Shown here: positions 76 to 5,661 of the stretch, in pieces
Position numbering within the stretch: the stretch's first letter is position 1
Layout of the letters: every line of letters starts with the position of its first letter
Virus record (IMG/VR): IMGVR_UViG_3300031857_000007
Length of the DNA stretch: 64,000 nt
Reading direction: 5' to 3' (one strand)
DNA from: a virus
Taxonomy: Duplodnaviria > Caudoviricetes
Program-made: the position numbers and the translations under genes
Notes under the pieces: generated by a model
Seen by the model: only the letters and a program-made list of their open reading frames with translations
The model's database searches: none
What the model was told of the DNA's origin: nothing

Positions 76-100
76 GGTGGACAGTACTGATTCTGTCCTA

Positions 101-173
101 TGCTCCTTGCGTGGATCGAACACGCCTCAGGCGAATTATGAGTTCGCTGCATTCACCAGATTGCTAAAGGAGC
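101..173 (-). tRNA. trnI(CAU): tRNA with CAU anticodon, probably Ile2 (lysidine type); Met not excluded
   Basis: GCTCCTT/AAGGAGC acceptor, GCGAA-CTCATAA-TTCGC anticodon arm, GCGTG-TTCGATC-CACGC T arm; CTCATAA loop resembles Ile2 tRNAs. Confidence 0.8.
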
Positions 174-176
174 AAG

Positions 177-248
177 TAGGACTGGAGAGAATTGAACTCT
201 CTTCACACCGTTATAAGCAGTGGGCCTTAACCAATAGGCGACAGTCCC
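177..248 (-). tRNA. trnI(UAU): tRNA-Ile(UAU)
   Basis: GGGACTG/CAGTCCT acceptor, CACTG-CTTATAA-CGGTG anticodon arm, TTCAATT T loop. Confidence 0.85.
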
Positions 249-287
249 TTGAAACCAGATCTATAGTAGCGGATCTGGAACGATTCG

Positions 288-518
288 TCAAGACCCTTCT
301 TCATGGTCTGTGTGGAGACGTATCAGTTCATCATCCACAGTTGATTCTATTGCGTACTTTATGGTTTCGTTGTAAGGAACTATCACTGCACTATTGCTCC
401 CATCTCGGATAATAAATGATTCGCCATTTTCAACTCTATTCATTAGATTTTCAAAATCTAATTGAAATTCTTCGACTGTAAATGATTGAAGTTCGTTTAG
501 TTCTTGATACATTTTCAT
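288..518 (-). CDS. Phd/YefM-like (antitoxin-fold) small acidic protein
   Basis: FTVEEFQLDFENLMNRVENGESFIIRDGSNSAVIVP fits the Phd/YefM pattern; start trimmed because the longer ORF overlaps tRNA-Pro. Confidence 0.65.
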   Translation of the reverse strand: MKMYQELNELQSFTVEEFQLDFENLMNRVENGESFIIRDGSNSAVIVPYNETIKYAIESTVDDELIRLHTDHEEGS

Positions 519-535
519 AAAGTAATTTTTATGAG

Positions 536-609
536 TCGGAATGATAGGATTCGAACCTACGGCCACTCGCTCCCAAAGCGAGTGCTCTACCAAACTGAGC
601 TACATTCCG
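536..609 (-). tRNA. trnP(UGG): tRNA-Pro(UGG) copy 1
   Basis: CGGAATG/CATTCCG acceptor, CTCGC-TTTGGGA-GCGAG anticodon arm. Confidence 0.92.
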
Positions 610-726
610 TTATTTGTTTCTATGTATAAACATAATACCAGCAAAAGGAACGACTGTCAACCCCATTCCACATAGAAAAAGAAAAAATGGGTTTGAAGCA
701 AGTGATTCTACAACATGAAAAATCAT
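610..726 (-). CDS. 38-aa hydrophobic protein (MIFHVVESLASNPFFLFLCGMGLTVVPFAGIMFIHRNK)
   Basis: Translated by hand; ATGA overlap with upstream stop; one TM-like stretch. Confidence 0.55.
   Translation of the reverse strand: MIFHVVESLASNPFFLFLCGMGLTVVPFAGIMFIHRNK
632..660 (-). promoter_or_regulatory. sigma70-type promoter TTGACA-N17-TATTAT ahead of tRNA-Pro
   Basis: ttgaca gtcgttccttttgctgg tattat. Confidence 0.7.
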
Positions 727-923
727 CTTCCCCTCCAGTTCTTGTACTCATAATACAAGTATTGATCAACTTCGTCAAGTCCCGATAAAGGAGCATTCAC
801 TTCCCAATTAGACCACTCAATGCAAAATTGTCTAATGTCATGATTATGTATAATCCCATGCCCATACATTCGTACAAAAGCAGACATTGCAAAGTTATAC
901 CTTTGTTTATTGTGGATATGCAT
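723..923 (-). CDS. hypothetical protein
   Basis: 66-aa ORF in a tightly coupled run of ORFs. Confidence 0.6.
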   Translation of the reverse strand: MHIHNKQRYNFAMSAFVRMYGHGIIHNHDIRQFCIEWSNWEVNAPLSGLDEVDQYLYYEYKNWRGR

Positions 924-999
924 TATGAAGTCCCCAATTAATAAAAATTGTTATGAGACTAAAAATAAAAACTGCATTGAAAATTGCTGTAGTACTCAT
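907..999 (-). CDS. 30-aa hydrophobic protein (MSTTAIFNAVFIFSLITIFINWGLHNAYPQ)
   Basis: Hand translation; TAATG coupling to upstream stop. Confidence 0.5.
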   Translation of the reverse strand: MSTTAIFNAVFIFSLITIFINWGLHNAYPQ

Positions 1000-1121
1000 T
1001 ACATTCCCCCGTTTCTAAAACCTACAATGTAACCAATAATTAATCCACACATGAAAGCGACAAACAAATAAAGAATATGAGACACAAACTCAATAAATAT
1101 AATCCAATCTGTCGTCGTCAT
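999..1121 (-). CDS. 40-aa hydrophobic protein (MTTTDWIIFIEFVSHILYLFVAFMCGLIIGYIVGFRNGGM)
   Basis: Hand translation; fills gap; TM-like. Confidence 0.5.
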   Translation of the reverse strand: MTTTDWIIFIEFVSHILYLFVAFMCGLIIGYIVGFRNGGM

Positions 1122-1404
1122 CGTCGTCGTCCTCATAAGTAGATGGTTCCTCGAAGAGTTCATTCATTTTTTGTTGCAAAACTCTTTGCTGTAGTTCTTG
1201 AAAATCTTCGTCCGTAAACTTAATCACAAGTAAAGGATCTCCTACTTTAACGTTGTTTAATTCTGGGTGTTTTACTTTAGGACTTTTTGAGTATCCATAA
1301 TGAGCATTCATAATCATCCATCCCTGAACAACCATAGATAAAGCAATCACAACAAGAACAAACCACGGTACTAAAAATATTATTGGAGAGTAATGTTGAG
1401 CCAT
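1090..1404 (-). CDS. membrane-anchored hypothetical protein with acidic C-terminus
   Basis: N-terminal hydrophobic helix, poly-Asp tail. Confidence 0.65.
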   Translation of the reverse strand: MAQHYSPIIFLVPWFVLVVIALSMVVQGWMIMNAHYGYSKSPKVKHPELNNVKVGDPLLVIKFTDEDFQELQQRVLQQKMNELFEEPSTYEDDDDDDDRLDYIY

Positions 1405-1583
1405 GGAAATACTGGCGGAATTACTCCAATGAGTCGAAGAAGACCTTCAGCAAAAAGAGCAAGAACAACCCAACCAACACACATTGAAATAATCGAAGCA
1501 TTACGATTGTGTCTTCGTATGGCATCATCAATCATCTCCTGCACTTCAGTTCTTGTAATAAATTCCTCTTGTTCATGCATCAT
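1380..1583 (-). CDS. small membrane hypothetical protein
   Basis: 67 aa with C-terminal hydrophobic segment. Confidence 0.65.
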   Translation of the reverse strand: MMHEQEEFITRTEVQEMIDDAIRRHNRNASIISMCVGWVVLALFAEGLLRLIGVIPPVFPWLNITLQ

Positions 1584-1729
1584 TTCTCGTCTCCAAAAAA
1601 TTTGGCGAGAGGATCTCTTCTAGTTTTAACAATTTCAACTGCTCTTTTGTAGAACATATTATCGGTGTTACCAGAAGTTTCAAAGGTTTCTTTGATCTTC
1701 ACCCAATTATTATAGGTGTGCTGATCCAT
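1580..1729 (-). CDS. 49-aa hypothetical protein (MDQHTYNNWVKIKETFETSGNTDNMFYKRAVEIVKTRRDPLAKFFGDEK)
   Basis: Hand translation; ATGA overlap with next ORF. Confidence 0.6.
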   Translation of the reverse strand: MDQHTYNNWVKIKETFETSGNTDNMFYKRAVEIVKTRRDPLAKFFGDEK

Positions 1730-1841
1730 AGGTTTATCCCGTGATACTAATATATACTAATCACAGGAATTTCAACGTCAACGAATTGTGTTCAATACGT
1801 AACACTCATTAAGCAATTATTAAATTTGTAACTTATCTAAA

Positions 1842-1926
1842 CGGAAAGGGTGGGATTCGAACCCACGGAAGCTTTCACTTCGCCAGTTTTCAAGACTGGA
1901 GCCTTCAACCACTCGACCACCTTTCC
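1842..1926 (-). tRNA. trnS(UGA): tRNA-Ser(UGA)
   Basis: CCAGT-CTTGAAA-ACTGG anticodon arm, long variable arm, G73. Confidence 0.92.
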
Positions 1927-1938
1927 AATATTAAGTCC

Positions 1939-2190
1939 TTAACGGACTTCAAAATCAAGTCGTCTTACTTTACGTTGACGACGTGCTTCTTGCCAAGCAA
2001 TATCTTGAGAAGACAGCACATTCTTTTGTTGATTTTCTTTTAAAGAGTTTAACATAACAATTCTAGATAAGTCAAGTGCTGAAATCTTATCCCCACGAAT
2101 AGTTGCCATATTAGGACAACCGCAAGTCACTGTTTTTGATTGCTGTCCTGTCAATTCTCTATTACAATCTTTACATCTTATTGAAATCAT
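1939..2190 (-). CDS. small Cys-containing hypothetical protein (CxxC...CxC, possible Zn ribbon)
   Basis: RCKDC...TCGCPN motifs. Confidence 0.7.
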   Translation of the reverse strand: MISIRCKDCNRELTGQQSKTVTCGCPNMATIRGDKISALDLSRIVMLNSLKENQQKNVLSSQDIAWQEARRQRKVRRLDFEVR

Positions 2191-2205
2191 TGTTCTTCAT
2201 CCTTA

Positions 2206-2640
2206 TCACTGTAAATGTGATCTTAGCATCCATACAAACTTGCCATGAGATTCCATTAAGTCTTGAACCAGATTAGCAGTTGCATATTGCTTTTGTGTTT
2301 CTGATTCTTCAGAAATCTCTGCCATTAATTCACAAAACTTGGTGTTATTATCAAGAAGTTCTTGAAGCATTTCTTTCGCTCCAGTTGAACTTGCTGCTTC
2401 TTTAATCTGAGTTACCTCAAGCATTCTTGAAAGAGAACTCAATGGTTTTACATTTAAGTATCTCATATGTTCTGAGAGACGATCAATCTCTTCAAACATA
2501 GTTTCATACTGACCACCAAAGAGTTGATGAAGTTGAGTAAAGTCTTCTCCAACTACATTCCAGTGAAATGCCCAAGTTTTGTGAAACAAAACAAAAAGTG
2601 ATGACTGAGCATCACTTAAGAGTTTAAACAGTTTTTCCAT
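2206..2640 (-). CDS. dps: Dps / ferritin-like DNA protection protein
   Basis: HWNVVGEDFTQLHQLFGGQY...IDRLSEH ferroxidase-type motif; start trimmed to MEKLF because the longer ORF runs into tRNA-Val. Confidence 0.88.
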   Translation of the reverse strand: MEKLFKLLSDAQSSLFVLFHKTWAFHWNVVGEDFTQLHQLFGGQYETMFEEIDRLSEHMRYLNVKPLSSLSRMLEVTQIKEAASSTGAKEMLQELLDNNTKFCELMAEISEESETQKQYATANLVQDLMESHGKFVWMLRSHLQ

Positions 2641-2668
2641 TATACTCTTTTTGTATTTATTTATCAAG

Positions 2669-2740
2669 TGGGAAATATCGGATTCGAACCAATGACTTAC
2701 TGCTTGTAAGGCAGCCACTCTACCGCTGAGTTAATCTCCC
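2669..2740 (-). tRNA. trnV(UAC): tRNA-Val(UAC)
   Basis: CTGC-CTTACAA-GCAG anticodon arm, GGGAGAT/ATTTCCC acceptor. Confidence 0.9.
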
Positions 2741-2743
2741 GTG

Positions 2744-2815
2744 TCCTCTGTCTAGGAATCGAACCTAGTTTCCAAGTGCGTTGTCCGCCTGTCCTTACCA
2801 ATAGACTACCAGAGG
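2744..2815 (-). ncRNA. 72-nt tRNA-like element with intact D/T arms and a non-pairing anticodon arm
   Basis: CCTCTG/CAGAGG acceptor, GTCT-ATTGGTA-AGGAC D arm, CTAGG-TTCGATT-CCTAG T arm; anticodon region GGCGGACAACGCACTTG cannot form a canonical 5-bp stem with U33. Confidence 0.6.
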
Positions 2816-3125
2816 TTGTGGTAGGTGTTGAGGACTTTACCTATGTCCCCACTCTTGACATTCACCCAAGCACCAGCAATAAGCATAGACCTGAGGAGAG
2901 GTTTTGGCACCTACGGAACGGTGATGAGTGCCCATCACCAGCGGAAGACACTTTCCGCAATTTTCACTGCATTAGAGGGCAGTGAATAAGAGGTTTCCAG
3001 TAGCCGTTCTTATCTCCCATAAGGAAGATGTAGGTATCGAACCTACAAAGGACAGTCCCTAACGGAACTGCTGGGAATTCCACTCAGAACCAATATGAAA
3101 GAATCGGACATTTCCAATCCTTTCA
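2816..3125 (-). ncRNA. candidate ~300-nt structured RNA containing a permuted tRNA-like module
   Basis: At least six hairpins plus T arm GTAGG-TTCGATA-CCTAC stacked on ATCTTCC-TTAT-GGGAGAT; no credible ORF. Confidence 0.55.
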
Positions 3126-3126
3126 A

Positions 3127-3198
3127 CTCCCCCACCTCGATTCGAACGAGGAACCTTAGAGTTAACAGCTCTCTGCTCTGCCGTTGAGCTATAGGGGA
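3127..3198 (-). tRNA. trnN(GUU): tRNA-Asn(GUU)
   Basis: CTGTTAA loop, TCCCCTA/TGGGGGA acceptor, G73. Confidence 0.9.
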
Positions 3199-3218
3199 AT
3201 AAGAACCCGAAGGTTCAG

Positions 3219-3290
3219 AGCGGAGTATCGGAATCGAACCGACGACATCTAACTTGGAAGGATAGCGTTCTACCGCTGAACTAACTCCGC
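3219..3290 (-). tRNA. trnG(UCC): tRNA-Gly(UCC)
   Basis: CTTCCAA loop, GCGGAGT/ACTCCGC acceptor, U73. Confidence 0.92.
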
Positions 3291-3300
3291 TTATAAGACA

Positions 3301-3329
3301 ATCATAAACTATTTTAGTTTGATTGTCAA
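3301..3329 (-). promoter_or_regulatory. sigma70-type promoter TTGACA-N17-TATGAT inside an inverted repeat
   Basis: ttgaca atcaaactaaaatagtt tatgat. Confidence 0.7.
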
Positions 3330-3330
3330 G

Positions 3331-3412
3331 TGTCGATGAAAGGACTTGAACCTTCACAGATTAATCTACTGGAACCTAAACCCAGCGCGTCTACCAATTC
3401 CGCCACATCGAC
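3331..3412 (-). tRNA. trnL(UAG): tRNA-Leu(UAG)
   Basis: CTGGG-TTTAGGT-TCCAG anticodon arm, long variable arm. Confidence 0.9.
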
Positions 3413-3476
3413 TTGATGGAGTAAGCGTAATATACCTCATAAGGATATAACAGAGGCTTACCCTCTATCACTTTAT

Positions 3477-3505
3477 ATAGTAACAGACTCATAAGAATCT
3501 GTCAA
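3477..3505 (-). promoter_or_regulatory. sigma70-type promoter TTGACA-N17-TACTAT inside an inverted repeat
   Basis: ttgaca gattcttatgagtctgt tactat. Confidence 0.7.
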
Positions 3506-3506
3506 G

Positions 3507-3580
3507 CGTCCTTTGAGAGATTCGAACTCCCGACACATAGGTTCGTAGCCTACTGCTCTTTTCCACTGAGCTAAAAGGAC
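3507..3580 (-). tRNA. trnR(ACG): tRNA-Arg(ACG)
   Basis: GTAGG-CTACGAA-CCTAT anticodon arm. Confidence 0.9.
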
Positions 3581-3584
3581 AAGG

Positions 3585-3655
3585 CGAAGGATGAGGGATT
3601 TGAACCCCCACTAATGGTTTTGGAGACCATCGTGCTACCATTACACCAATCCAAC
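3585..3655 (-). tRNA. trnW(CCA): tRNA-Trp(CCA) with two U-U mismatches in the acceptor stem
   Basis: ATGGT-CTCCAAA-ACCAT anticodon arm; acceptor GTTGGAT/ATCCTTC. Confidence 0.75.
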
Positions 3656-3729
3656 TGGCTGAGAAACTAGGACTCGAACCTAGATAAACTCCTTCAAAGG
3701 GAGGTGTCCTACCATTAGACGATTTCTCA
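3656..3729 (-). tRNA. trnQ(UUG): tRNA-Gln(UUG), the only one with encoded CCA
   Basis: CTTTGAA loop, U1-A72 TGAGAAA/TTTCTCA acceptor, G73 CCA. Confidence 0.9.
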
Positions 3730-3801
3730 AGCCCAATGTCAGACTCGAACTGACGACCTACTCATTACTAGTGAGTTGCTCTACCACTGAGCTAATCGGG
3801 C
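3730..3801 (-). tRNA. trnT(AGU): tRNA-Thr(AGU), A34 anticodon
   Basis: ACTCA-CTAGTAA-TGAGT anticodon arm, GCCCGAT/ATTGGGC acceptor. Confidence 0.85.
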
Positions 3802-3803
3802 GG

Positions 3804-3874
3804 GGTGACGTATGGGAATTGAACCCATCTAGGTGGTTCCACAAACCACTGCCTTACCACTAGGCTAACGTCAC
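3804..3874 (-). tRNA. trnH(GUG): tRNA-His(GUG)
   Basis: GTGGT-TTGTGGA-ACCAC anticodon arm, C73; G-1 not encoded. Confidence 0.9.
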
Positions 3875-3875
3875 A

Positions 3876-3947
3876 AGGCAGTGGGTAGAATTGAACTACC
3901 GACATAGAGGGTATGAATCTCTTGTTCTACCACTGAACTACACTGCC
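3876..3947 (-). tRNA. trnM(CAU): tRNA-Met(CAU), elongator-like
   Basis: TTCATAC loop, paired G1-C72, no GGG/CCC initiator stem. Confidence 0.8.
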
Positions 3948-3951
3948 AAAG

Positions 3952-4033
3952 TGGACGCTGACCTGCTGGTTACTCTTTCTGAAGAGGGAGGCGTCAGTCT
4001 TTTATATCCTAGCAAGCACCTTGCTGGAGTCCA
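3952..4033 (-). ncRNA. candidate 82-nt three-way-junction RNA between tRNA-Ser(GGA) and tRNA-Met
   Basis: TGGAC/GTCCA closing stem, AGCAAG-GTG-CTTGCT hairpin, CTGAC/GTCAG stem with CTCTT-CAGA-AAGAG tip. Confidence 0.5.
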
Positions 4034-4034
4034 A

Positions 4035-4119
4035 CGGAGAGTAGAGGATTCGAACCTCTGGTGCTGTTACACACAAGACCTTTCCAAGATCTCACCATAA
4101 ACCACTCGGACAACTCTCC
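4035..4119 (-). tRNA. trnS(GGA): tRNA-Ser(GGA)
   Basis: TTGGAAA loop, long variable arm, G73. Confidence 0.9.
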
Positions 4120-4121
4120 AA

Positions 4122-4210
4122 CGGAAGTGGTTGGATTCGAACCAACGGATGCCTATAAAGACATCGGCGGTTTAGCAAACCGCTGCTTTAGACCTCTCAG
4201 CCACACTTCC
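4122..4210 (-). tRNA. trnS(GCU): tRNA-Ser(GCU)
   Basis: GCGGT-TTGCTAA-ACCGC anticodon arm, long variable arm. Confidence 0.92.
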
Positions 4211-4223
4211 ATATCGTAGGTTT

Positions 4224-4307
4224 ATTATTCAGAAGGATTTGAACCTTCATTGCCGTCTCCCAAAACGCAAGTGCTATGACGGAGTGTTACCGTTACACTA
4301 TGAACAA
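4224..4307 (-). ncRNA. tRNA-like element with a 20-nt anticodon loop and G3-U70
   Basis: TTGTTCA/TGAATAA acceptor, GTGT-AACGGT-AACAC D arm, CCGTC/GACGG anticodon stem around ATAGCACTTGCGTTTTGGGA, GAAGG-TTCAAAT-CCTTC T arm. Confidence 0.7.
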
Positions 4308-4309
4308 TA

Positions 4310-4521
4310 TCCTTACGTTGCTTACTCCTTAACTCTACTCATTGAATCTACTTGTTGGACCTAATCGTTGGAATACTCACTGCGTTCAACTTATTACCCT
4401 GCCTCGCCTTGAACGAGTCTGGTTTCTATAGCCTTTGCGTTTGTTAGTAATAAGCATACTGACAGGTTTCTTTTACCTTTCAGTTTTCCGTTCAACCCAA
4501 CTTTGGAATAAAGTTTGGGCA
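4310..4521 (-). ncRNA. candidate ~210-nt structured spacer RNA
   Basis: Several stems incl. CTTATTAC/GTAATAAG enclosing CTCG-TTCAAGG-CGAG; duplicated GTTGAACG. Confidence 0.4.
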
Positions 4522-4523
4522 AG

Positions 4524-4595
4524 TGGAACCGACAAGATTTGAACTTGTGACCGCTCGGTTATCAGCCGAGTGCTCTACCACTGAGCTACGATTCC
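4524..4595 (-). tRNA. trnI(GAU): tRNA-Ile(GAU)
   Basis: CTCGG-CTGATAA-CCGAG anticodon arm. Confidence 0.93.
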
Positions 4596-4599
4596 AGAG

Positions 4600-4673
4600 A
4601 GGGAACAATCGGATTTGAACCGATAACACCATGATCTTCAATCATGTGCTCTACCAATTGGAGCTATGTTCCC
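4600..4673 (-). tRNA. trnF(GAA): tRNA-Phe(GAA)
   Basis: CATGA-TTGAAGA-TCATG anticodon arm. Confidence 0.9.
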
Positions 4674-4677
4674 AAGG

Positions 4678-4751
4678 TCCAGATGGAGGGATTCGAACCC
4701 CCGACCCCCTGTTCCCAAAACAGGTGCGCTACCAAACTGCGCTACATCTGG
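4678..4751 (-). tRNA. trnP(UGG): tRNA-Pro(UGG) copy 2 (divergent from copy 1)
   Basis: CCTGT-TTTGGGA-ACAGG anticodon arm, CCAGATG/CATCTGG acceptor. Confidence 0.9.
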
Positions 4752-4754
4752 ATA

Positions 4755-4826
4755 TAGTCCTAACGGGATTTGAACCCGTGTCTTCACTGTGAAAGAGTGA
4801 TGTCCTCACCACTAGACGATAGGACC
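4755..4826 (-). tRNA. trnE(UUC): tRNA-Glu(UUC)
   Basis: TCACT-CTTTCAC-AGTGA anticodon arm. Confidence 0.92.
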
Positions 4827-4830
4827 AGAT

Positions 4831-5002
4831 GGGAGGGGTATCCCACACGAAGTTACTTACGGATTACGCTTCGTAGCCTTATGAATCCTGCCATCATCCG
4901 ATGGTGGTTAGAAATCCCTCCCCAATTCCAGTTATTACTACGACATTCTTCTGCAAACTGGCAACCTCTGAAGAATGCGTGGGAGTTAGAATACTGACTC
5001 CC
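4831..5002 (-). ncRNA. candidate ~170-nt RNA with two H-type pseudoknots between tRNA-Asp and tRNA-Glu
   Basis: CATTCTTC/GAAGAATG crossed by CCAGTT/AACTGG; GGATT/AATCC crossed by ACGAAG/CTTCGT inside GGGAGGG/CCCTCCC. Confidence 0.5.
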
Positions 5003-5004
5003 AA

Positions 5005-5078
5005 CGACCCATACGGGATTCGAACCCGTGATCTCCACCGTGACAGGGTGGCGTGATAAGCCGCTACACTAATGGGTC
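5005..5078 (-). tRNA. trnD(GUC): tRNA-Asp(GUC)
   Basis: CCACC-CTGTCAC-GGTGG anticodon arm. Confidence 0.92.
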
Positions 5079-5082
5079 AAGG

Positions 5083-5164
5083 TGGGAGGAGCAGGATTCG
5101 AACCTGCGAAGGCAGAGCCGTCTGATTTACAGTCAGATTCCTTTAACCACTCGGAAATCCTCCC
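5083..5164 (-). tRNA. trnY(GUA): tRNA-Tyr(GUA)
   Basis: TCTGA-CTGTAAA-TCAGA anticodon arm, long variable arm. Confidence 0.93.
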
Positions 5165-5168
5165 ACGA

Positions 5169-5241
5169 TGGGTCTGGTCGGGATCGAACCGACGACTTAC
5201 AGGTTAAAAGCCCGCTACTCTACCAACTGAGTTACAGACCC
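5169..5241 (-). tRNA. trnK(UUU): tRNA-Lys(UUU)
   Basis: CTTTTAA loop, GGGTCTG/CAGACCC acceptor. Confidence 0.92.
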
Positions 5242-5370
5242 AAATAATGTGGAAAATATTCAGTTGTCGATGTTCGGTGTGGTCTCTCTCGACCACTTGA
5301 TTAGAATACCACCGTTTGGTCTCTGGGGGGAGATTGGTGGACACTTAGGAAACCGTCACTGGTAACAAAC

Positions 5371-5404
5371 AAAAAAGGGGAGGAAACTTTTGGTTTCTCT
5401 CCCC
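5371..5404 (-). terminator. intrinsic terminator
   Basis: GGGGAGAGAAAC/GTTTCCTCCCC hairpin followed by T run. Confidence 0.7.
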
Positions 5405-5429
5405 TGTCTTTGCTTTTATGGATTACATC

Positions 5430-5531
5430 TTACATATGTCTTTCCATATCCGCAAACAGAGGAGTACCCTCAATATGCCAATAGCGCATATCAAGATTAC
5501 TAAACTGTTTGGTGGGCATTGGATAAGACAT
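5430..5531 (-). CDS. 33-aa hypothetical protein (MSYPMPTKQFSNLDMRYWHIEGTPLFADMERHM)
   Basis: Hand translation; bracketed by TATAAATA promoter and terminator. Confidence 0.55.
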   Translation of the reverse strand: MSYPMPTKQFSNLDMRYWHIEGTPLFADMERHM

Positions 5532-5552
5532 TGTTTTCGACCTAAGTGTGTT

Positions 5553-5583
5553 TATTTATAAGACTTTTTTGTTAAAAAGTCAA
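5553..5583 (-). promoter_or_regulatory. overlapping sigma70-type (TTGACT-N17-TATAAA) and T4 late (TATAAATA) promoter
   Basis: ttgact ttttaacaaaaaagtct tataaata. Confidence 0.7.
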
Positions 5584-5655
5584 CAGGCTCACCAGGAATC
5601 GAACCTGGGACAACCGCTTAGAAGGCGGTGGTTATATCCGCTTAACTATGAGCCC
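5584..5655 (-). tRNA. trnR(UCU): tRNA-Arg(UCU)
   Basis: ACCGC-CTTCTAA-GCGGT anticodon arm. Confidence 0.92.
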
Positions 5656-5661
5656 AAGAGG

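What the first reader, a model, noticed from the sequence alone, without database searches (positions are those of the whole stretch)
2985..3082. Circularly permuted tRNA-like module with G3-U70 (YrlA- or permuted-tmRNA-like topology)
Seen: T arm GTAGG-TTCGATA-CCTAC (3046-3030) is followed directly by ATCTTCC-TTAT-GGGAGAT (3029-3012), a 7-bp acceptor-like stem closed by a 4-nt loop with a G-U at position 3-70, then a GG-containing D-like segment; upstream lies hairpin CAGTTCC-GTTA-GGGACTG. Established: bacterial YrlA Y RNAs and two-piece tmRNA precursors show this permuted order. Limits: no CCA, no Ro60/TROVE gene and no convincing tmRNA tag frame in the window. Inference: a new tRNA-mimic domain of a larger phage RNA.
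Basis: partly seen in the sequence, partly recalled or inferred. Interest (0 to 1): 0.7.

Follow-up and report, generated by a model that had tools for sequence, protein, structure and literature searches.

The report
Sealed, rearranged tRNA look-alike in cyanophage
Among the tRNA genes of this cyanobacterial virus lies a conserved 100-base RNA with tRNA arms in a rearranged order and its amino-acid end closed by a loop; it probably arose from the join between two tRNA genes, cannot decode, belongs to no catalogued RNA family, and what it binds is unknown.

Summary
At window 3091-2992 (minus strand) a closing stem encloses a 5-bp/7-nt hairpin, a 7-bp hairpin, a canonical T arm (3046-3030) and, with no spacer, a 7-bp loop-closed acceptor-like stem (3029-3012).

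I found this module in 110 loci from IMG/VR viral contigs and lake metagenomes, giving 56 distinct sequences. It was absent from 185,579 prokaryote genomes and from isolated phage records.

RNAalifold predicts the same five helices. The closing stem, second hairpin and T stem show compensatory changes. The acceptor-like stem is 99% paired but changes only through wobble intermediates.

G3-U70 is the least conserved of its seven pairs (U-G 51, U-A 4, C-G 1). The 18-nt core matches the tRNA-Ser(GCU)|tRNA-Ile(GAU) gene junction of related phages at 16 of 18 positions, so the G-U is probably a by-product of a chimeric origin.

The module is a self-contained cassette with at least five different 3' neighbours, and in some phages it has its own promoter. 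It is not a domain of one fixed larger RNA.

The YrlA and tmRNA membership tests fail. One divergent copy lies beside a Ro-like (DUF2828) gene, but two complete genomes that carry the module lack that gene.

Best reading: a non-decoding, sealed tRNA mimic of unknown partner. Earlier reports of this scan reached the same reading on other genomes.

The parts
3088..3091 (-). P1, 5' strand (GGUU) of the closing stem of the module
   Evidence: Pairs with 2995-2992. The outer pairs covary across homologues (G-C, C-G, U-A, A-U), and the stem extends to 7 bp in some phages.
3071..3087 (-). P2, anticodon-arm-like hairpin: 5-bp stem and 7-nt loop UGGAAUU
   Evidence: The stem is invariant in 55 of 56 distinct sequences; the window's own copy has an A.C mismatch. 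The loop has G at position 33 and U at position 37, so it is not a usable anticodon loop. The loop varies: UGCAAUU, UGAAAUU, UGGAACU.
3053..3070 (-). P3, variable-arm-like hairpin CAGUUCC-GUUA-GGGACUG
   Evidence: Three pairs show changes on both sides, and the loop sequence is free (GUUA, UUUA, GAUA, UUCG and others).
3047..3052 (-). Junction UCCUUU between P3 and the T arm
   Evidence: Nearly invariant in the 56 distinct sequences.
3030..3046 (-). P4, T arm GUAGG-UUCGAUA-CCUAC
   Evidence: Canonical 5-bp stem and 7-nt T loop. Two pairs are compensated in the divergent copy L134 (GCAGA/UCUGC).
3012..3029 (-). P5, acceptor-like 7-bp stem AUCUUCC/GGGAGAU closed by UUAU, contiguous with the T stem
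   Evidence: 99.0% of cells are paired. Five pairs vary on one side only and none on both. The loop is 3-5 nt and its sequence is free. The 18-mer matches the Ser(GCU)|Ile(GAU) junction at 16 of 18 positions.
2996..3011 (-). J5/1, D-region-like single strand AAGAACGGCUACUGGA
   Evidence: Highly conserved, including the first GG. AGAAC could instead pair with GUUCU (3090-3086) as a D-stem-like helix; that helix is 97.9% paired but the data do not decide between the two.
2992..2995 (-). P1, 3' strand (AACC)
   Evidence: Covaries with 3091-3088.

Best explanation
Window 3091-2992 (minus strand) encodes one copy of an uncatalogued, virus-specific small RNA family of T4-like cyanophages.

Shown: it is a self-contained module of about 100 nt. 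A short stem formed by its two ends encloses, in order:
- an anticodon-arm-like hairpin,
- a variable-arm-like hairpin,
- a canonical T arm,
- a 7-bp acceptor-like stem capped by a 3-5 nt loop,
- a GG-bearing D-like strand.

The acceptor-like stem pairs a 3' strand like that of tRNA-Ser(GCU) with a 5' strand like that of the next gene, tRNA-Ile(GAU).

Inferred origin: the module arose from the junction of two adjacent tRNA genes, keeping the 3' two-thirds of a long-variable-arm tRNA and the 5' third of its neighbour. It was then kept under selection for its fold.

Because the acceptor end is sealed and the anticodon-like loop breaks the U33 and purine-37 rules, it can neither be charged as it stands nor decode.

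Inferred function: it is transcribed with the tRNA operon, or from its own promoter, and accumulates as a stable RNA of about 100 nt. That RNA would present the acceptor/T-arm minihelix and elbow of a tRNA to a tRNA-recognising protein of host or phage, as a decoy or handle. The partner has not been identified.
For: Structure:
- RNAalifold recovers the five helices.
- Pair counts: 94.5% paired, 11 pairs with changes on both sides, 0 of 500 shuffles as high. The double changes lie in P1, P3 and the T stem.

Conservation:
- 110 loci and 56 distinct sequences from viral contigs and lake metagenomes.
- Mean pairwise identity is 92-95%, against 70-87% for true tRNAs of the same loci.
- Substitutions cluster in the P3 and P5 loops and at wobble-compatible stem positions.

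Autonomy:
- 3' neighbours are module E 22, the three-hairpin RNA 12, a tRNA mimic 10, module D 9 and tRNA-Val 2. 5' neighbours are a hairpin, an HNH endonuclease ORF or a promoter.
- A TTGACA-17-TAATAT promoter ends 7 nt before P1 in L182, L184 and L204. L103 and its relatives have a weaker TTGACA-17-TAACAT site 9 nt before P1.

Origin:
- The covariance model R1 hits only the Ser(GCU)|Ile(GAU) junction, in L009, L046, L110, L034, L058 and L080, at 25-32 bits.
- The 18-mer matches that junction at 16, 16 and 15 of 18 positions. The next best of 229 junctions scores 13, and the mode is 7-8.

Non-decoding:
- The P2 loop is UGGAAUU.
- Rfam tRNA gives no match, and ARAGORN calls it only occasionally, as a 90-nt 'tRNA-Phe' with a mispaired acceptor stem.

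Virus-specific: no match in 185,579 prokaryote genomes.
Against: - No expression, end-mapping or binding data exist; the function is inference.
- The conservation figure is biased upward, because homologues were found with patterns that fix 23 of 87 positions.
- High identity could also reflect recent horizontal spread by recombination around homing endonuclease genes rather than constraint.
- The acceptor-like stem has no fully compensatory change.
- The body of the module is no more similar to tRNA-Ser(GCU) than to other tRNAs (71% against 69%), so the junction origin rests mainly on 18 nt plus the long-variable-arm architecture.
- Re-permuting the sequence in silico gives an ARAGORN tRNA call in only 6 of 47 cases, so the D region is not tRNA-like enough for a strict 'permuted tRNA'.
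- The window's own copy has an A.C mismatch in P2 and folds slightly differently.
Confidence: 0.6

Rival explanations
1. A cis-acting element of the tRNA operon transcript. The acceptor/T-arm minihelix would recruit RNase P, RNase Z or exonuclease-blocking factors to punctuate or stabilise the neighbouring non-tRNA RNAs, and the module would have no role of its own in trans.
For: It always lies in or at the edge of tRNA arrays, next to other structured non-tRNA modules. A 7-bp acceptor stem on a T arm is the known RNase P determinant. The loop-closed 7-bp acceptor stem of M. smegmatis YrlA is cut by RNase P (Chen et al. 2014, PMC4201824).
Against: The same neighbouring modules occur without it: the three-hairpin RNA lies 36 nt, or only 1-2 nt, after tRNA-Asn in many phages. 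It can be the first element behind a promoter. Loops of only 3 nt in four of the 56 distinct sequences (L086, L186, L200/L219, L220) leave little room for cleavage. A mere processing signal would not need the conserved P2 stem and J5/1 sequence.
Confidence: 0.14
2. A functionless relic of a tRNA gene rearrangement that hitch-hikes through cyanophage tRNA arrays by recombination driven by homing endonucleases.
For: The junction-derived sequence. An HNH endonuclease ORF abuts it in L070, L084, L105 and L112. Its neighbours are shuffled. The window's copy carries a stem mismatch.
Against: It is more conserved than the true tRNAs of the same loci. Substitutions avoid stems or are pair-preserving, with compensatory changes in three helices. 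The closing stem P1, which is not inherited from a tRNA, covaries.
Confidence: 0.14
3. A Y-RNA-like (YrlA-like) RNA that works with a Ro-like RNA-binding protein.
For: The arm order V-T-AS-D enclosed by a terminal stem is the YrlA order (PMC4201824). The most divergent copy, L134, lies about 340 nt downstream of a DUF2828+DUF7788 gene. That gene is 42% identical to mycobacteriophage genes annotated 'Ro-like RNA binding protein'. Synechococcus phage B3 has the same gene beside its tRNA array.
Against: No DUF2828 or TROVE gene in two 100%-complete genomes that carry the module (G001, G003), and no DUF2828 homologue in this 64-kb window. No GNCGAAN0-1G Ro-binding motif in any of 56 sequences. No Rfam YrlA match. 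The R1 model does not match downstream of the gene in phage B3. P1 is only 4-7 bp.
Confidence: 0.07
4. Precursor of a two-piece, alanine-accepting RNA (tmRNA-like). RNase P would cut before G1 in the UUAU loop, the 3' end would be trimmed and given CCA, and AlaRS would charge it through G3-U70.
For: The order T arm, 3' strand, loop, 5' strand is that of permuted tmRNA genes. G3-U70 is present in the window and in 51 of 56 distinct sequences. None of the array's tRNA genes read here (Asn, Gly, Leu and the tRNA mimic at 2743-2815) is followed by an encoded CCA, so its absence is no objection. M. smegmatis YrlA shows such cleavage and CCA addition.
Against: G3-U70 is the least conserved pair of the stem: U-A in 4 distinct sequences and C-G in 1. 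L191 has two broken top pairs. The loop is 3-5 nt. P1 closes the module 16 nt after the 5' strand and the downstream neighbour varies, so there is no conserved tag frame or pseudoknot; all three frames hit stops early. ARAGORN, which covers permuted tmRNA, and the Rfam tmRNA families find nothing.
Confidence: 0.04

Closest known systems
YrlA (Y RNA-like A) of bacteria and mycobacteriophages (Chen et al. 2014, PMC4201824)
   Same: A non-decoding tRNA mimic. A stem made by the RNA's two ends encloses a variable-arm hairpin, a canonical T arm, a loop-closed acceptor stem and a D-like region, in that order. The acceptor stem is 7 bp, as in the M. smegmatis form that RNase P cuts.
   Different: No Ro-binding helix or GNCGAA motif. 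There is no adjacent or genome-wide Ro60/TROVE gene, and a DUF2828 gene in only one contig. It has an extra anticodon-arm-like hairpin, no D stem-loop and no Rfam match. It sits in phage tRNA arrays.
Two-piece (circularly permuted) tmRNA genes of alpha-proteobacteria, some beta-proteobacteria and some cyanobacteria (my own knowledge; Rfam alpha_, beta_ and cyano_tmRNA)
   Same: Gene order T arm, 3' acceptor strand, intervening loop, 5' acceptor strand. G3-U70 is present in most copies.
   Different: No tag reading frame, no pseudoknots and no long P2 helix. The intervening segment is only 3-5 nt. G3-U70 is not invariant. No model match.
Permuted tRNA genes of Cyanidioschyzon merolae and other algae (Soma et al. 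2007, cited in PMC4090602)
   Same: The 3' part of a tRNA lies upstream of a 5' part, as expected after loss of the outer parts of two tandem genes.
   Different: The algal genes yield ordinary decoding tRNAs through a circular intermediate and eukaryotic splicing enzymes. Here the two parts come from different tRNAs, the anticodon-like loop is unusable, and re-permutation does not give a recognisable tRNA.
Stable RNAs C and D (species 1 and 2) in the phage T4 tRNA gene cluster (my own knowledge)
   Same: Small stable non-tRNA RNAs encoded among phage tRNA genes and presumably released by tRNA-processing enzymes. Their function is unknown.
   Different: No sequence or structural relationship was tested or is evident.

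Membership tests
YrlA / bacterial Y RNA | Encoded beside, and bound by, a Ro60 (TROVE) orthologue | tested here: not met
   PF05731 and PF11443 are absent from the two 100%-complete genomes that carry the module and from two further large contigs (D. radiodurans rings as a positive control). tblastn with the L134 DUF2828 protein finds nothing in the 64-kb window. Only L134 has a DUF2828 gene nearby. The rest of the window's genome could not be searched.
YrlA / bacterial Y RNA | Ro-binding terminal helix with the GNCGAAN0-1G motif | tested here: not met
   The regular expression found no match in any of the 56 sequences with flanks, nor in the window's 310-nt gap. P1 is 4-7 bp.
YrlA / bacterial Y RNA | tRNA-like domain with V arm, T arm, loop-closed acceptor stem and D arm, in that order | tested here: inconclusive
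   The V-like arm (P3), T arm (P4) and acceptor-like stem (P5) are present in that order. The D region is a conserved GG-bearing strand without a stem-loop of its own. There is an extra hairpin, P2.
YrlA / bacterial Y RNA | Match to the Rfam covariance model | tested here: not met
   cmscan of window 2740-3200 at E up to 10 lists no Y RNA or YrlA family, and none in L134 or phage B3.
Two-piece tmRNA | Permuted order: T arm, 3' acceptor strand, intervening segment, 5' acceptor strand | tested here: met
   Seen directly in the sequence, 3046-3012.
Two-piece tmRNA | Invariant G3-U70 alanine identity pair | tested here: not met
   U-G 51, U-A 4, C-G 1 among the 56 distinct sequences. It is the most variable pair of the stem.
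Two-piece tmRNA | Tag reading frame with resume codon, and pseudoknots, downstream of the 5' acceptor strand | tested here: not met
   P1 closes 16 nt after the strand. The 3' neighbour differs among phages. All three frames meet stops within 2-28 codons.
Two-piece tmRNA | Detection by ARAGORN or the Rfam tmRNA models | tested here: not met
   No tmRNA in the window. No tmRNA family at E up to 10.
Canonical tRNA (RF00005) | Acceptor stem made by free 5' and 3' ends; 7-nt anticodon loop with U33 and purine 37 | tested here: not met
   The acceptor stem is capped by a loop. The P2 loop UGGAAUU has G33 and U37. There is no RF00005 match; the only clan hit is tRNA-Sec at 14 bits, E 6.2. ARAGORN's 'tRNA-Phe(gaa)' of 90 nt in L070 and L084 has a mispaired acceptor stem.
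Circularly permuted tRNA gene | Re-joining the two parts restores a recognisable tRNA | tested here: not met
   ARAGORN calls only 6 of 47 in-silico re-permuted sequences, and in odd registers.

The most novel reading that the evidence does not exclude
The module is one RNA subunit of a phage tRNA-mimic ribonucleoprotein system. In some cyanophages (L134, and perhaps B3-like phages) it would work with a Ro-like DUF2828 protein. Alternatively, RNase P opens it in the capping loop and it receives CCA, giving a two-piece chargeable RNA, as happens to M. smegmatis YrlA. Either case would link the unexplained non-tRNA RNAs of phage tRNA clusters to Y-RNA-type RNA surveillance or to translation.
Probability: 0.1. 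Interest if true: 0.8.

Novelty: new variant of a known kind. Interest (0 to 1): 0.55.

Why it matters
Phage tRNA clusters have long been known to hold stable RNAs of unknown role, such as T4 RNAs C and D. This module is a clean, widespread and well-defined example. It has a plausible origin (a tRNA-tRNA gene junction) and a defined fold that can be probed, pulled down and deleted.

If it is a decoy or handle for a tRNA-recognising enzyme or defence nuclease, it would add a non-decoding class to the ways phages manipulate host tRNA biology.

It also matters for annotation. ARAGORN sometimes calls it a 90-nt tRNA-Phe, which would inflate phage tRNA counts.

Tried and rejected
- Rfam, whole window at gathering score and 2740-3200 at E up to 10: only weak chance hits in the module.
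- ARAGORN tmRNA search, which covers permuted forms: nothing.
- blastn of the module against 50,697 phage records: no match. The only match of the 310-nt gap, to phage S-SRM01, lies in the neighbouring three-hairpin RNA and not in the module.
- Pattern scan of 185,579 prokaryote genomes: nothing.
- Ro-like partner. The DUF2828 gene beside the L134 copy looked decisive. But it is absent from the window, from all other loci and from two complete genomes that carry the module, and TROVE is absent too. The protein has no sequence match among solved structures.
- Body homology to tRNA-Ser(GCU) or tRNA-Ile(GAU): not discriminating, 71% against 69% for other tRNAs. A first junction script with fixed acceptor offsets was unreliable and was replaced.
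- Alternative D-stem-like closing helix GUUCU/AGAAC: compatible (97.9% paired) but not separable from P1 and P2 with these data.
- In-silico re-permutation to a tRNA: mostly not recognised.
- The window's own whole genome is not held, so no genome-wide partner search was possible.

Full report
**Setting.** The window comes from a T4-like cyanomyovirus (Kyanoviridae). Its nrdA, nrdB and primase region is 75-78% identical to those of Synechococcus phages. The minus strand of 100-5656 carries 25 of the 26 tRNA genes that ARAGORN finds. The finding lies in a 310-nt gap (3125-2816) between tRNA-Asn(GUU) and a weak tRNA-like gene at 2815-2743. The gap has no credible ORF, matches no Rfam family and folds far better than shuffles (z = -4.7).

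**Observation.**
- T arm at 3046-3030.
- Contiguous 7-bp stem AUCUUCC/GGGAGAU capped by UUAU at 3029-3012, with a G-U at the third pair.
- Hairpin at 3070-3053.
- A GG-bearing strand at 3011-2996.

Two parts were missed: a closing stem (GGUU 3091-3088 with AACC 2995-2992) and a 5-bp/7-nt hairpin at 3087-3071. Together they form a closed module of 100 nt, which I call M1.

**The gap is a string of separate modules.** The only match to an isolated phage (S-SRM01, 89% over 73 nt) lies downstream of M1, in a three-hairpin element. A scan with that element's loop found it in about 65 viral contigs, almost always downstream of tRNA-Asn. The spacer between the two varies: 1-2 nt, 36 nt (one hairpin only), or 80-190 nt holding different inserts. 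M1 is one of those inserts.

**Homologues of M1.** Three pattern scans of IMG/VR and one of JGI metagenomes were placed so that the T arm, or the acceptor-like stem, or both were left free. They gave 110 loci and 56 distinct sequences. A covariance model built from the first 33 (R1) scored them at 95-143 bits and picked up two more divergent copies, L152 and L134. The same pattern found nothing in 185,579 prokaryote genomes. blastn found nothing in 50,697 phage records. The family is therefore, so far, known only from uncultured freshwater viral sequence.

**Structure.** RNAalifold on the 56 sequences returns the same five helices. Counting pairs on my structure:
- 94.5% of cells are standard pairs, against 39-52% after sliding partners.
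- 11 pairs have changes on both sides, and 0 of 500 shuffles reach that.
- The double changes are in P1 (6 pairs), P3 (3) and the T stem (2, both in L134: GCAGA/UCUGC).
- P2 never varies except for the window's own A.C mismatch.
- P5, the acceptor-like stem, is 99.0% paired. It changes only on one side, always through G-U intermediates apart from four mismatched cells in three sequences (L133, L191, L210).

The pair at the G3-U70 position is U-G in 51 distinct sequences, U-A in 4 and C-G in 1. That makes it the most variable of the seven pairs, which is not what an alanine identity element would show.

A second, D-stem-like helix (GUUCU with AGAAC) is 97.9% paired. It shares bases with P1 and P2 and cannot be separated from them here.

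**Origin.** At 25-32 bits, R1 also hit one other kind of place in six loci: the boundary between tRNA-Ser(GCU) and the next gene, tRNA-Ile(GAU). There the order is anticodon arm, long variable arm, T arm, AUCCUCC, GUAU, GGGAGAU, D arm.
- Among 229 distinct tRNA-tRNA junctions in all loci, M1's 18-mer matches this junction at 16, 16 and 15 of 18 positions. The next best is 13 and the mode is 7-8.
- Several phages have tRNA-Ser(GCU) ending in exactly AUCUUCC.

M1's 'acceptor stem' is therefore a cross-pairing of the Ser 3' strand with the Ile 5' strand. Ser has A3-U70 and Ile has G3-C70, so the chimera has G3-U70. This explains the wobble without any link to alanine.

The rest of M1 is no closer to tRNA-Ser(GCU) than to other tRNAs. 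Re-permuting M1 in silico rarely gives an ARAGORN tRNA. The origin is therefore likely but not proven, and the D region has diverged.

I reached this reading, before seeing that an earlier report of this scan says the same about another genome.

**Is it kept by selection?** In loci that hold both, M1 copies are 92-95% identical on average, and true tRNAs of one kind 70-87%. Removing the 23 positions fixed by my search pattern still leaves about 90%. Divergent copies would, however, have been missed. Variation is concentrated in the P3 and P5 loops, the outer P1 pairs and wobble-compatible stem positions. That pattern is what purifying selection on a fold leaves, not neutral decay.

**Autonomy.** Among 57 distinct contexts:
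- The 3' neighbour is module E (22), the three-hairpin RNA (12), the anticodon-less tRNA mimic (10), module D (9) or tRNA-Val (2).
- The 5' neighbour is usually a conserved hairpin that follows tRNA-Asn, but can be the end of an HNH endonuclease ORF or a promoter.
- In L182, L184 and L204 a TTGACA-17-TAATAT site ends 7 nt before P1. L103 and its relatives have a weaker TTGACA-17-TAACAT site 9 nt before P1.

In the window a TTGACA-17-TATGAT site at 3329-3301 precedes tRNA-Gly, tRNA-Asn and the gap. M1 is thus a cassette whose ends form P1, not a domain of one larger RNA.

**Known families.**
- *YrlA* (Chen et al. 2014, PMC4201824) has the same arm order inside a terminal stem. Its M. smegmatis form, the one with a 7-bp acceptor stem, is cut by RNase P and given CCA.
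- The defining YrlA features fail, however. There is no Rfam match. There is no GNCGAA motif in any of 56 sequences. Two complete and two partial phage genomes that carry M1 hold neither a TROVE nor a DUF2828 gene.
- The exception is L134. The most divergent copy lies about 340 nt downstream of a 512-aa DUF2828+DUF7788 protein. That protein is 42% identical to mycobacteriophage genes annotated 'Ro-like RNA binding protein' and 72% identical to one in Synechococcus phages B3 and B23. In B3 the gene also abuts the tRNA array, but R1 does not match there. I keep this as the basis of the novel case, not of the main reading.
- *Two-piece tmRNA* shares only the strand order. There is no tag frame, no pseudoknot and no model match. 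The loop is 3-5 nt and G3-U70 is variable.

**Mechanism.**
- *Shown:* a conserved, closed, tRNA-shaped fold with a sealed acceptor end and an unusable anticodon-like loop, carried as a cassette in phage tRNA operons.
- *Inferred:* it accumulates as a stable RNA of about 100 nt. It offers a tRNA minihelix and elbow to a tRNA-recognising protein, as a decoy or handle.
- The rivals are listed with their odds: a cis processing element, a selfish relic, a Y-RNA-like partner of a Ro-like protein, and a two-piece alanine acceptor.

**Verdict.** This is a new RNA family that works like the tRNA-like domain of YrlA but is not a member of that family. Earlier reports of this scan described the same module on other genomes.

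Noticed in passing
window 2987-2920 (-): A conserved three-hairpin RNA of about 70 nt lies directly 3' of the module. H1 is 2985-2964 with loop CCUCUAAU, H2 is 2958-2941 with loop AGUGUC, and H3 is 2939-2920 with loop GGCACU. It is found in about 65 viral contigs and in phage S-SRM01, almost always downstream of tRNA-Asn, and usually ends exactly where the next tRNA starts. In 43 distinct sequences 99.6% of cells are paired and 9 pairs change on both sides. The H2 and H3 loops are complementary over 6 nt, which suggests a kissing interaction. It matches no Rfam family.
   Followed up: partly
window 3125-3096 (-): A 13-bp hairpin follows tRNA-Asn directly. Its conserved central GGAAAUGU spans the 4-nt loop and the adjoining stem bases, and its stem covaries. 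It is present in most related arrays, whether or not the module follows.
   Followed up: partly
window 2914-2821 (-): A further module of about 95 nt is closed by GUAGGUG/CACCUAC. It recurs in other phages directly after the tRNA mimic module or after the three-hairpin RNA.
   Followed up: no
window 2815-2743 (-): ARAGORN calls this a 73-nt tRNA-Leu(CAA), but it lacks the long variable arm of a bacterial tRNA-Leu and scores only 32 bits on the Rfam tRNA model, with its anticodon arm unaligned. It is conserved in many related arrays.
   Followed up: no
window 5697-5661 (-): An Rfam abiF RNA match (48 bits, gathering score 37) lies directly beside tRNA-Arg(UCU), at the upstream end of the tRNA array.
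   Followed up: no
L134:1757-3295 (-) and L134:1000-1750; L223 (Synechococcus phage B3) 3037-5075: A DUF2828+DUF7788 'Ro-like' gene is followed by an array of non-tRNA RNAs. The array holds repeated hairpins of the form UAGRUGRU-UCAGC...AYCAYCUAG flanking a pseudo-tRNA with a long insert in the anticodon region. In L134, module E, a divergent copy of the tRNA mimic module and a third module follow. The hairpins could be binding sites for the protein.
   Followed up: partly
L134:843-1040 (-): An Rfam group I intron match (53.6 bits, gathering score 50) starts inside what looks like a tRNA gene in this viral contig.
   Followed up: no
L070:9024-9590 (-): A 188-aa HNH endonuclease ORF sits inside the tRNA array, and its last codons run into the 5' end of the tRNA mimic module. 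The same arrangement occurs in L084, L105 and L112. This is a likely driver of the module shuffling seen in these arrays.
   Followed up: partly
L070:8986-9075, L084:3501-3590: ARAGORN annotates the module as a 90-nt tRNA-Phe(GAA) with a largely unpaired acceptor stem. This false positive could inflate the tRNA counts of cyanophage genomes.
   Followed up: yes
window 3329-3301 (-): A near-consensus sigma-70-type promoter (TTGACA, 17 nt, TATGAT) lies between tRNA-Leu(UAG) and tRNA-Gly, so the array is probably more than one transcription unit. Similar sites lie at 5770-5742, 3505-3477 and 2667-2639.
   Followed up: no
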